From IMG/VR virus record IMGVR_UViG_2529292913_000008: DNA of 64,000 bases. One strand, written 5' to 3'. The notes below the pieces were generated by a model that worked only from the letters and a program-made list of their open reading frames with translations, was not told where the DNA came from and did no database searches. The translations under genes were made by a program, and so were the position numbers. Numbering within the stretch: the stretch's first letter is position 1; every line of letters starts with the position of its first letter. Shown here in pieces: positions 13,259 to 14,521 of the stretch. This DNA comes from a virus (taxonomy: Duplodnaviria; Heunggongvirae; Uroviricota; Caudoviricetes).

Positions 13259-14521
13259 TCAGCGAACGTAAATAGTGCCGCCGTTCTCTTTTTCCCATGC
13301 ATCGCTACGTGCATAGCAAACATCGAGAAGTCTTCTTGCCGCAGTTTCCTCTAAACCCAATTCGACAACCAACTGCTCATGACGGCGGGTAACCACATCA
13401 AACAGGGTATGCAGCCCTTTAGTTGCCAGATCATCAATGAATTCCGGTTCGAACGGCAGCTCTGCATCTGCTAACATAACCTCTTGCGCCCACTCAACTC
13501 GACGGACCAGTTCCGGGCGGCGGCTTTCCATCTCTTTACAGATCAATTCATGGAAGAACTCTACCCAACCTTCCGGCTGGAACTCGCGGAAAATTGCCAA
13601 CGGCTGGAAGTTTGGCATCAACCATTCGTTGATTCGGATATCAATGGCATAGCCCATGTCGCAGCAGAACTGATAAGCAAAGTCCAGCTTAGAAACGATA
13701 TAAGGACGCTCGTTATTGAACTCTTTAGGCGATGAGATCCCATAAGCCAGGAGGCGCGGGAAGAAGGAGATTTGCCCTAACGTCGGATGAAGTTTGCTTG
13801 CAGGGAAACGGCGCTCAGTAATGCCATACATTTCCTTCTTGAGCGTCGCAAATTTGGCATTCTCATTAACCAGCGCGGTAACCTCTGCTTTTTATTAGCA
13901 AATGCCACGCGCGCTTCGCTTGCATCTTTAATAGTTTTTTTGAGCTGTTGGTTAAGGTCGGCGACCTGCTTACGCAGTTCCTGTCGCTCGCTTTTAGCTT
14001 TGTTATAGCGTTTCTCAAGGTTAAAAGGATCAAGTTTCATGATCTCTTTATATTGAGATTTTAGCGTTGAAATCTGTGAGTTCCGCAGTTCAACCATCGC
14101 GGTCATTTCATTGAGTTTTGTTTCCAGCTCAATGCTTATACGTTCGGCATTATCAGCACGCTGGTTGGCGTCATGCGTCGCATCGTCGATCGCGTCCTGT
14201 TGCTGGCGTTTCAAATGTTCAATTTGCAGCTGAAGCTCTTCAATTTCTTTACCCTTCAGACCGAGATCCAACTGCATATTTTCAGCTGCATCTACCAGGG
14301 AGTTATGGCTATCAGCTTCTGCGTTATAAACATCAATAAGCTGTGCGTGAAGCATCTCCGCTGACTGAACCGCATTATCAAAAAAAACGTGCTGTGAGGT
14401 CATCACAACTAACGCGGCGTTGCGCGGCCCGGATGTTCTGGATAATGGCCGGGATACCGGCATTCAGGACATCAGGGATAGATACATTTTCGATTGATTG
14501 GTTTTGTGCTGAAGTGCTCAT
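13259..14521 (-). pseudogene. coiled-coil protein gene split into three frames by two homopolymer indels (about 420 aa if repaired)
   Basis: frame changes at the A8 run 14380-14387 and T5 run 13889-13893; removing one T and adding one A gives a continuous ORF MSTSAQNQ...GGTIYVR. Confidence 0.5.

What the first reader, a model, noticed from the sequence alone, without database searches (positions are those of the whole stretch)
13259..14521. Gene broken twice at homopolymer runs
Three consecutive minus-strand reading frames join into one plausible 420-residue protein if the T8 run at 14380-14387 is shortened by one and the T5 run at 13889-13893 is lengthened by one. The joined sequence reads naturally across both junctions. 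Two opposite-sign indels in one gene point to homopolymer sequencing error or to slipped-strand inactivation.
Basis: seen in the sequence. Interest (0 to 1): 0.45.

Follow-up and report, generated by a model that had tools for sequence, protein, structure and literature searches.

The report
Frameshifted pmgS gene of P1-like plasmid
This is the well-known phage P1 gene pmgS, broken at two single-base runs in an E. coli plasmid-prophage: one break is a real mutation inherited by a whole plasmid lineage, and the other is seen only in this one old draft assembly and is probably a sequencing error, so the finding is ordinary.

Summary
Window 13259-14521 (minus strand) is pmgS of a P1-like phage-plasmid. 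It has T8 where P1, P7 and almost all relatives have T7, and A5 (T5 on the + strand) where they have A6. Undoing both indels gives a 420-aa protein identical to a PmgS variant recorded on at least 1000 contigs.

The window is contig AIGC01000010.1 of E. coli DEC7C, a 2012 draft from the DECA collection.

The two indels have different histories:
- **T8** is shared with the complete plasmid of ETEC1731, where RefSeq already marks the gene "frameshifted". Its 47-aa product is on 129 contigs, including DEC7A, EPECa12 and many Logan assemblies. It is a real, inherited slipped-strand frameshift.
- **A5 together with T8** exists only in the DEC7C assembly.

That assembly carries three more private one-base homopolymer deletions, against three private SNPs. 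One of them (repL T7 to T6) recurs in other DECA-project assemblies of unrelated P1-like plasmids. A Logan assembly of an early read set that carries a DEC7C-private SNP disagrees with the contig at another homopolymer. A5 is therefore probably a homopolymer undercall, or less likely a very recent slippage.

There is no sign of programmed recoding: 92 of 95 full-length IMG/VR copies are intact. Interest is low.

The parts
13259..14521 (-). pmgS (P1 gp093; called shtB in P7), present here as a doubly frameshifted pseudogene of 1263 nt
   Evidence: 99% identical to P1 82452-83714. The repaired translation is 420 aa and matches PHROG 1660 at E = 1e-195.
14380..14387 (-). T8 run (A8 on the + strand), one base longer than the T7 of intact pmgS. 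The reading-frame context is CGU UUU UUU UGA UAA.
   Evidence: Shared with ETEC1731. The resulting 47-aa ORF is on 129 contigs. All 120 IMG/VR contigs have T7. Phage vB_EcoM-813R1 has T5 at this run.
13889..13893 (-). A5 run (T5 on the + strand), one base shorter than the A6 of intact pmgS
   Evidence: Combined with T8 it is found only in AIGC01000010.1. The same A5 occurs on other haplotypes in L136, L139 and L141.
14378..14521 (-). Fragment 1: 47-aa N-terminal ORF that ends at the TGA created by T8
   Evidence: EHV87575.1 and others.
13777..14463 (-). Fragment 2: the middle reading frame. It is 228 aa from the first ATG. GenBank annotates 208 aa from the ATG at 14403, as EHV87574.1 'pmgS [E. 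coli DEC7C]'.
13259..13831 (-). Fragment 3: 190-aa C-terminal ORF
   Evidence: 20 contigs carry it.
13935..13941 (-). A7 run inside pmgS. It is intact here but is a third recurrent frameshift site (A7 to A6) in other P1-like elements.
   Evidence: One search lists the run. L132, L133, L135, L137, L139 and L140 have A6. L013 has a deletion at this run.
14523..14741 (-). pmgR, the upstream gene of the same operon. It is intact, and its stop codon lies one base before the pmgS ATG.
   Evidence: Its translation is identical to P1 PmgR.
14756..14821 (-). C1 operators OpmgRa (14805-14821) and OpmgRb (14756-14772) with promoter PpmgR (-35 at 14815-14820, -10 at 14792-14797)
   Evidence: Identical to the annotated P1 elements.
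13205..13239 (-). Intrinsic-terminator-like hairpin with a T run, just after the pmgS stop codon
   Evidence: 11-bp stem with 6 GC pairs, followed by TTTTT.
47220..47225 (-). T6 run (+ strand) where ETEC1731 and P1 have T7. It splits repL into 192 aa and 89 aa. This is the same class of private homopolymer deletion.
54548..54552 (+). A5 run where ETEC1731 and P1 have A6. It splits sit (tape measure / transglycosylase) into 219 aa and 996 aa.
39378..39383 (.). A6 run where ETEC1731 and P1 have A7. It is intergenic, between parS and the gene 23 promoter region.

Best explanation
The locus is pmgS. In P1 this gene is the second gene of the C1-repressed pmgR-pmgS operon, and it is dispensable for lytic growth. 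It sits here on the P1-like plasmid-prophage of E. coli DEC7C (contig AIGC01000010.1).

**First break (T7 to T8).** A slipped-strand insertion of one T occurred in an ancestor of a plasmid lineage that includes DEC7A, DEC7C, EPECa12 and pig ETEC strain ETEC1731. It puts a TGA directly after codon 47. This break is real and inherited (shown).

**Second break (A6 to A5).** In this T8 background it exists only in the DEC7C draft assembly. It is most likely a homopolymer undercall of the sequencing or assembly, alongside three other private one-base homopolymer deletions in the same contig (inferred).

**Consequence.** Either way pmgS is a pseudogene on this plasmid. The element is already defective as a phage, because its tail-fibre gene S is truncated by an IS element. 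Nothing indicates programmed recoding.
For: **Identity of the gene.**
- Searches identify the gene and its operon.
- Searches identify the window: it is 100% identical to AIGC01000010.1, and the 208-aa fragment is EHV87574.1 'pmgS [E. coli DEC7C]'.

**T8 is real.**
- The near-identical complete plasmid NZ_CP122822.1 (ETEC1731) has T8 with A6. It differs from the window by 6 SNPs over the aligned ~60 kb, plus IS differences. Its gene is annotated 'frameshifted'.
- The 47-aa product is on 129 contigs. The 381-aa T8+A6 product is on 112 contigs from NCBI and Logan. These include DEC7A and EPECa12.

**A5 is probably an artefact.**
- The 208-aa product, which needs both T8 and a downstream -1 frameshift, is on one contig only.
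- Compared with ETEC1731 and polarised with P1 and pSvP1_F, the window has 4 private indels. All are -1 deletions in runs of 6-7 bases. It has only 3 private SNPs.
- Runs of 5 or more bases cover 2.5% of the window, so these indels are of the homopolymer type and not random.
- Two of the other private deletions break repL and sit. The P1 CRISPRi paper lists sit as essential by knockdown and repL among known essential genes that its screen missed (PMC10695390).
- The repL T6 allele is on only 9 contigs. At least three are DECA-collection assemblies (AIFB, AIGC, AIGF), and the AIFB and AIGF repL loci differ from the window at 60-70 positions in 2.6 kb. That points to a platform-specific error.
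- The Logan assembly of run SRR124118 carries the DEC7C-private gp25 R178Q change. It disagrees with the contig at an A4/A3 run, and its contig ends sit next to A6 runs.

**Defective prophage context.** S is truncated by an IS element and IS10 is inserted in the lxr-like gene. pmgS is nonessential for P1 lytic growth (PMC10695390).
Against: - No reads could be inspected, so the A5 call is not disproved.
- A5 at this same run occurs in other plasmid backgrounds (L136, L139, L141), two of them Logan assemblies and one a separate NCBI assembly. Natural slippage at this site therefore happens.
- The sit frameshift product is also on record from a Logan assembly. At least one of the 'private' deletions is thus reproduced by an independent assembler, possibly from the same reads.
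- All six SNPs separating the window from ETEC1731 are transitions. Together with homopolymer indels this would also fit a mismatch-repair-deficient episode.
- The sequencing platform of the DECA project could not be verified with the tools.
Confidence: 0.6

Rival explanations
1. Both indels are real mutations. After the inherited T8 frameshift inactivated pmgS, the DEC7C plasmid acquired a second slipped-strand deletion (A6 to A5), together with deletions in repL, sit and one intergenic run. This would be neutral decay of an already defective prophage, possibly speeded by a transient mutator state.
For: - A5 and the neighbouring A7-to-A6 frameshift recur on several distinct haplotypes in independent assemblies (L013).
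- The plasmid is already dead as a phage.
- The sit frameshift product also appears in a Logan assembly.
- All private SNPs are transitions.
Against: - Four private homopolymer deletions against three private SNPs is far above the roughly 1:10 indel-to-substitution ratio of wild-type E. coli (my own knowledge of mutation-accumulation studies, not a tool result).
- All four are deletions.
- The repL T6 allele is concentrated in assemblies of one sequencing project, across unrelated plasmids.
- Two assemblies linked to the same strain disagree at a homopolymer.
Confidence: 0.3
2. Both indels are sequencing errors, and pmgS is intact in the real DEC7C plasmid.
For: The assembly shows homopolymer problems. 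The two indels have opposite signs, so the gene length stays at 1263 nt.
Against: T8 is present in the independently sequenced complete plasmid of ETEC1731, and in 129 contigs (47-aa product) and 112 contigs (381-aa product) from many runs and sources. Among 24 T8-bearing contigs that were read, 22 share the same 47 + 381 aa structure.
Confidence: 0.04
3. The breaks are decoded. This could happen by programmed or tolerated recoding (RNA-polymerase slippage on the T8 run, or a +1 ribosomal shift at UUU_UGA), or the T run could act as a phase-variable on/off switch for PmgS.
For: - The T8 context is CGU UUU UUU UGA. A P-site tRNA-Phe can re-pair perfectly in the +1 frame next to a stop codon (sequence). 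This resembles the prfB site (my own knowledge).
- Tract length varies among relatives: T5 in phage vB_EcoM-813R1, T7 in most, T8 in the DEC7 lineage.
- pSvP1_F has an otherwise identical gene with T7.
Against: - The frameshift is not conserved. All 120 IMG/VR contigs, P1 and P7 have T7, and only 1 of 670 RefSeq E. coli records matches the T8 80-mer exactly.
- No Shine-Dalgarno-like stimulator lies upstream of the T run (sequence).
- The A5 site has no X_XXY_YYZ heptamer in frame: the codons are AAU AAA AAG.
- A run of 8 is at the low edge of the lengths known for transcriptional slippage or phase variation (my own knowledge).
Confidence: 0.04

Closest known systems
pmgS of bacteriophage P1 (P1_gp093, YP_006559.1), called shtB in phage P7 (AAQ07558.1)
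   Same: Same gene, same 1263-nt length, 99% nucleotide identity. Same neighbours (pmgQ, pmgR, pap), C1 operators and promoter. The repaired protein differs from P1 PmgS only by I2S.
   Different: Here the ORF is interrupted by +1 T at the T7 run and -1 A at the A6 run. It therefore reads as fragments of 47, 208-228 and 190 aa.
Frameshifted pmgS pseudogene QDY29_RS26410 on plasmid unnamed6 of E. coli ETEC1731 (NZ_CP122822.1)
   Same: The plasmids are nearly identical, with 6 SNPs over the aligned ~60 kb plus IS differences. Both carry the same T8 frameshift, and RefSeq already annotates that gene as 'frameshifted'.
   Different: ETEC1731 has A6, so it carries one break only. It also has T7 in repL, A6 in sit and A7 in the intergenic run.
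Intact pmgS of plasmid pSvP1_F (NZ_MN510446.1, WP_000107690.1)
   Same: Nucleotide-identical to the window's gene apart from the two indels. It encodes exactly the repaired 420-aa protein.
   Different: It has T7 and A6 and is an uninterrupted ORF.
RF2 (prfB) +1 frameshift site and poly-A/T transcriptional slippage sites (a comparison of mechanism only)
   Same: A slippery codon lies directly before an in-frame UGA (UUU_UGA here, CUU_UGA in prfB), and the site is a T8/A8 run. The prfB facts are from my own knowledge.
   Different: There is no upstream Shine-Dalgarno stimulator. The site is not conserved in orthologues. Read-through has not been tested.

Membership tests
PmgS-like proteins (PHROG 1660; P1 gp093) | Full-length sequence match to the family profile | tested here: met
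   The repaired protein matches phrog_1660 at E = 1.1e-195 over residues 1-420. It is 99.8% identical to P1 PmgS.
PmgS-like proteins (PHROG 1660; P1 gp093) | Position in the C1-controlled pmgR-pmgS operon, between pmgQ and pap | tested here: met
   the operators, promoter and pmgR are identical to those of P1. pap lies at 12680-13186.
PmgS-like proteins (PHROG 1660; P1 gp093) | Single uninterrupted ORF of about 420 codons | tested here: not met
   Two frameshifts give three ORF fragments. The locus is therefore filed as a pseudogene of the family, not as a functional member.
Programmed frameshift / recoding gene | The frameshift site and the two-frame architecture are conserved in orthologues | tested here: not met
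   T7 in 120 of 120 IMG/VR contigs and A6 in 110 of 111. 92 of 95 full-length copies are intact. Exact T8 80-mer in 1 of 670 RefSeq E. coli records and exact A5 77-mer in 0 of 603.
Programmed frameshift / recoding gene | Slippery motif with a stimulatory element | tested here: inconclusive
   The T8 site reads UUU_UGA, a shifty stop, but has no upstream SD-like element. The A5 site reads AAU AAA AAG, which is not an X_XXY_YYZ heptamer (sequence).
Phase-variable (contingency) locus | Tract-length polymorphism between otherwise identical alleles | tested here: met
   pSvP1_F has T7, while ETEC1731 and DEC7C have T8, in an otherwise identical gene. Phage vB_EcoM-813R1 has T5.
Phase-variable (contingency) locus | Frequent reversible switching within a clone | not testable with these tools
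   This needs read-level data or colony assays. 22 of 24 T8 contigs that were read show the same stable 47 + 381 aa state, which argues for clonal inheritance.
Homopolymer sequencing / assembly artefact | The indel is confined to one assembly and absent from sibling genomes | tested here: met
   This holds for A5 in the T8 background: the 208-aa product is on one contig only, while DEC7A, ETEC1731 and Logan contigs have the 381-aa product. It does not hold for T8, which is on 129 contigs.
Homopolymer sequencing / assembly artefact | Other indels of the same type in the same assembly, beyond what substitutions predict | tested here: met
   4 private -1 homopolymer deletions against 3 private SNPs. 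The repL T6 allele is enriched in DECA-project assemblies. There is an A4/A3 discrepancy with the Logan assembly of SRR124118.
Homopolymer sequencing / assembly artefact | Reads disagree with the consensus at the run | not testable with these tools
   No read pile-up is available, and the sequencing platform of the project could not be looked up.

The most novel reading that the evidence does not exclude
The poly-T and poly-A runs of pmgS (T7 at codons 45-47, A7 at nt 580-586, A6 at nt 628-633) may be recurrent natural frameshift hot spots in P1-like plasmids. In that case the widespread T8 allele would not be a null. Its CGU UUU UUU UGA context would allow low-level +1 ribosomal shifting or RNA-polymerase slippage. 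The tract would then act as a crude dimmer or phase switch for a prophage protein that is expressed from a C1-controlled promoter, and would not be mere decay.
Probability: 0.06. Interest if true: 0.4.

Novelty: already known. Interest (0 to 1): 0.1.

Why it matters
It matters little for biology. pmgS is a known, conserved P1 gene that is nonessential for lytic growth, and its function is still unclear. A frameshifted copy on a defective plasmid-prophage is routine gene decay.

The practical value is for annotation quality:
- The three ORFs in DEC7C should be merged into one pseudogene.
- The T8 frameshift is a usable lineage marker for a P1-like plasmid lineage found in DEC7 strains, EPECa12 and pig ETEC strain ETEC1731.
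- The other one-base homopolymer deletions of this 2012 draft (pmgS A5, repL, sit, one intergenic run) should not be read as biology without read-level checks.

Tried and rejected
**Searches that failed or found nothing**
- A single gapped DNA pattern spanning both runs found nothing, even in loci that must match. It was a tool limitation and I dropped it.
- Exact T8 and A5 patterns found nothing in IMG/VR. The A5 pattern found nothing in the GTDB representative genomes.
- Exact-haplotype BLAST in RefSeq complete E. coli genomes gave T8 in 1 of 670 records and A5 in 0 of 603. At first this suggested both alleles were nearly private. The exact-protein look-ups then showed that T8 is common and that A5 recurs on other haplotypes, which the 77-mer identity bands could not resolve.
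- Looking up the DECA genome paper for the sequencing platform failed, because the paper is not held. No paper mentions ETEC1731.

**Attempts to learn PmgS function**
- Pfam gave only sub-threshold coiled-coil noise.
- The PDB sequence search found nothing significant.
- A single-sequence AlphaFold model had mean pLDDT 51.6, with the C-terminal half below 50. It was too poor for a fold search, so none was run.

**Explanations rejected**
- Compensating frameshifts: the intervening frame has immediate stops.
- Three separate genes: orthologues have one ORF.

Full report
**1. What is in the sequence**

On the minus strand between 14521 and 13259 there are three consecutive ORFs: 14378-14521 (47 aa), 13777-14463 (228 aa) and 13259-13831 (190 aa). 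The first ends just after a run of eight T at 14380-14387 on the gene strand, which is A8 on the + strand. The second changes frame at a run of five A at 13889-13893 on the gene strand, which is T5 on the + strand. Deleting one T and adding one A gives a 1263-nt ORF of 420 codons. The only slip is that one run is named by the gene strand and the other by the + strand. The two indels do not compensate for each other: after T8 the reading frame meets TGA TAA immediately and many more stops follow.

**2. What the gene is**

The region is 98-99% identical to phage P1 and its relatives, where it is annotated pmgS. P7 calls the same gene shtB, 'sheath contraction'. P1 pmgS is also 1263 nt long. P1, P7 and MH422554 all have T7 and A6 at the two runs. 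The repaired protein equals P1 PmgS except for I2S, a change shared with P7. It matches PHROG 1660 'PmgS-like' over its full length at E = 1e-195. It is an exact sequence seen on at least 1000 contigs.

The upstream gene pmgR, the two C1 operators and the PpmgR promoter are identical to those of P1. A terminator-like hairpin follows the stop codon.

According to a genome-wide CRISPRi study, pmgS is nonessential for P1 lytic growth, both by knockdown and by a cited deletion survey (PMC10695390). A survey of 77 P1-like phage-plasmids lists it among 21 extremely conserved genes of constant length (PMC9603915). Its molecular function stays unknown:
- Pfam gives only sub-threshold coiled-coil hits.
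- The PDB sequence search gives nothing significant.
- A single-sequence AlphaFold model is confident only for the N-terminal coiled coil.

**3. Where the window comes from**

The 208-aa version of the middle fragment is GenBank protein EHV87574.1, 'pmgS [Escherichia coli DEC7C]'. It is on a single contig of 91,644 bp. A 17-kb stretch of that contig, AIGC01000010.1, is 100% identical to window 10905-28122. The accession lies in the range of the E. coli DECA collection drafts of 2012.

**4. The T8 insertion is real and inherited**

The closest complete relative is plasmid unnamed6 of pig ETEC strain ETEC1731 (NZ_CP122822.1). It differs from the window by six SNPs over the aligned ~60 kb, plus IS differences. 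It has the same T8, but A6, and RefSeq already annotates its gene as 'frameshifted'.

The 47-aa product of the T8 allele is on 129 contigs. The 381-aa product expected from T8 with A6 is on 112 contigs. Both come from NCBI and Logan assemblies, and they include DEC7A and EPECa12. Of 24 T8 contigs that were read, 22 share the 47 + 381 aa structure.

Plasmid pSvP1_F has an otherwise nucleotide-identical gene with T7 and A6. T8 is therefore a recent slipped-strand insertion that marks one plasmid lineage.

Outside that lineage:
- T7 is universal in a sample of 120 IMG/VR contigs.
- The exact T8 80-mer is in 1 of 670 RefSeq complete E. coli records.

**5. The A5 deletion is private to this assembly and probably an artefact**

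The product that needs both T8 and the downstream -1 shift is on record only for DEC7C.

I aligned the window to ETEC1731 and polarised each difference with P1 and pSvP1_F. The window has three private SNPs and four private indels. All four indels are one-base deletions in runs that are 6-7 bases long in the relatives:
- pmgS, A6 to A5.
- The intergenic run at 39378-39383, A7 to A6.
- repL at 47220-47225, T7 to T6.
- sit at 54548-54552, A6 to A5.

The last two split repL and sit. The CRISPRi paper lists sit as essential by knockdown and repL among known essential genes that its screen missed. Runs of five or more bases make up only 2.5% of the window, so these are homopolymer-type events.

Two observations point to the data more than to the DNA.

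First, the repL T6 product is on only nine contigs in the whole collection. At least three are DECA-project assemblies (AIFB, AIGC, AIGF), and the AIFB and AIGF repL loci differ from the window at 60-70 positions in 2.6 kb. The product is absent from Logan.

Second, the Logan assembly of run SRR124118 carries the DEC7C-private gp25 R178Q change. It disagrees with the GenBank contig at an A4/A3 run, and its contig breaks off next to A6 runs.

From my own knowledge, the indel-to-substitution ratio in wild-type E. coli is roughly 1:10. Four indels against three SNPs would be unexpected for natural mutation.

**6. What keeps the rival alive**

- A5 at the same run occurs on at least three other pmgS haplotypes (L136, L139, L141).
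- An A7-to-A6 frameshift at 13935-13941 occurs on several more haplotypes (L132, L133, L135, L137, L139, L140, and L013 from IMG/VR).
- Phage vB_EcoM-813R1 has T5 at the T run.

These runs are thus either natural slippage hot spots or recurrent error sites.

- The sit frameshift product is also recorded from a Logan assembly.
- The prophage is already defective: tail-fibre gene S is truncated by an IS element and IS10 sits in the lxr-like gene. Selection would therefore not remove further breaks.

I could not see reads or confirm the sequencing platform. I put about 0.6 on 'T8 real, A5 artefact', about 0.3 on 'both real', and a few percent each on 'both artefacts' and on recoding or phase variation.

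**7. Recoding considered**

The T8 context, CGU UUU UUU UGA, is a slippery codon before a stop. It would allow a +1 re-pairing that restores the frame, and eight T is near the lower limit for RNA-polymerase slippage (my own knowledge). However, the site is not conserved and no stimulator is visible. The A5 site (AAU AAA AAG) is not a canonical -1 heptamer. Some leakiness of the T8 allele is possible, but it is untested and there is no sign that it is selected.

**8. Verdict**

The refinement is that the two breaks have different origins. The locus is a known gene, present as a pseudogene that is already flagged in a sibling plasmid, so novelty is nil and interest is low. The useful outcome is a caution about homopolymer calls in this draft assembly.

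Noticed in passing
window 8467-8506 (inside hsdS, 7909-9177 +): The type I specificity gene has 3.3 copies of the 12-bp repeat CTTACCGCTGAG, encoding [16 protein letters not shown]1731 and pSvP1_F have one copy fewer. From my own knowledge this is the classic EcoR124I / EcoR124II repeat-number switch, which changes the spacer of the recognition sequence. The sibling plasmids probably differ in restriction specificity.
   Followed up: partly
window 47220-47225 (repL) and 54548-54552 (sit): One-base homopolymer deletions split repL (192 + 89 aa) and sit (219 + 996 aa). Both genes are continuous in ETEC1731 and P1. The repL allele recurs mostly in DECA-project assemblies.
   Followed up: yes
window 3209-4533: A 1.3-kb insertion is absent from ETEC1731, pSvP1_F and P1. 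It encodes a 402-aa transposase that I recognise as IS10 (my own knowledge, not run against a library). It sits at the end of the lxr-like ORF at 2675-3208.
   Followed up: partly
window 60672-63170 and 63084-64000: Tail-fibre gene S runs into an IS3-family element and loses its C-terminal part. ETEC1731 has S cut by an IS at a different point (window 61048). Both plasmids are therefore defective as phages.
   Followed up: partly
window 44893-46263: An IS4-like element (IS421) lies in the opposite orientation to that in ETEC1731, flanked by 39-bp overlaps. The window has G7 where ETEC1731 has G6 and a 'frameshifted' transposase.
   Followed up: no
window 54026-54190 and 54323-54487: A 165-bp segment near the start of sit occurs twice, 297 bp apart, at 92.7% identity. 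The repaired Sit would be 1229 aa, against 1140 aa in P1.
   Followed up: no
window 14391-14409 (minus strand): A weak terminator-like hairpin (7-bp stem, 3 GC pairs) lies directly before the T run inside pmgS. The number of such sites in the region is within chance expectation.
   Followed up: no
window 28865-28872: This is the only other run of 8 in the window (A8). It is shared with ETEC1731, and P1 has A6 there.
   Followed up: no
L144 (GCA_019431085.1, JABTXU010000003.1) and L155 (phage vB_EcoM-813R1, ON470617.2): Both records carry several homopolymer-length changes in pmgS: T8 and A8 plus others in L144, and T5 in L155. Their ORFs are fragmented, which may reflect noisy long-read assemblies.
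   Followed up: partly
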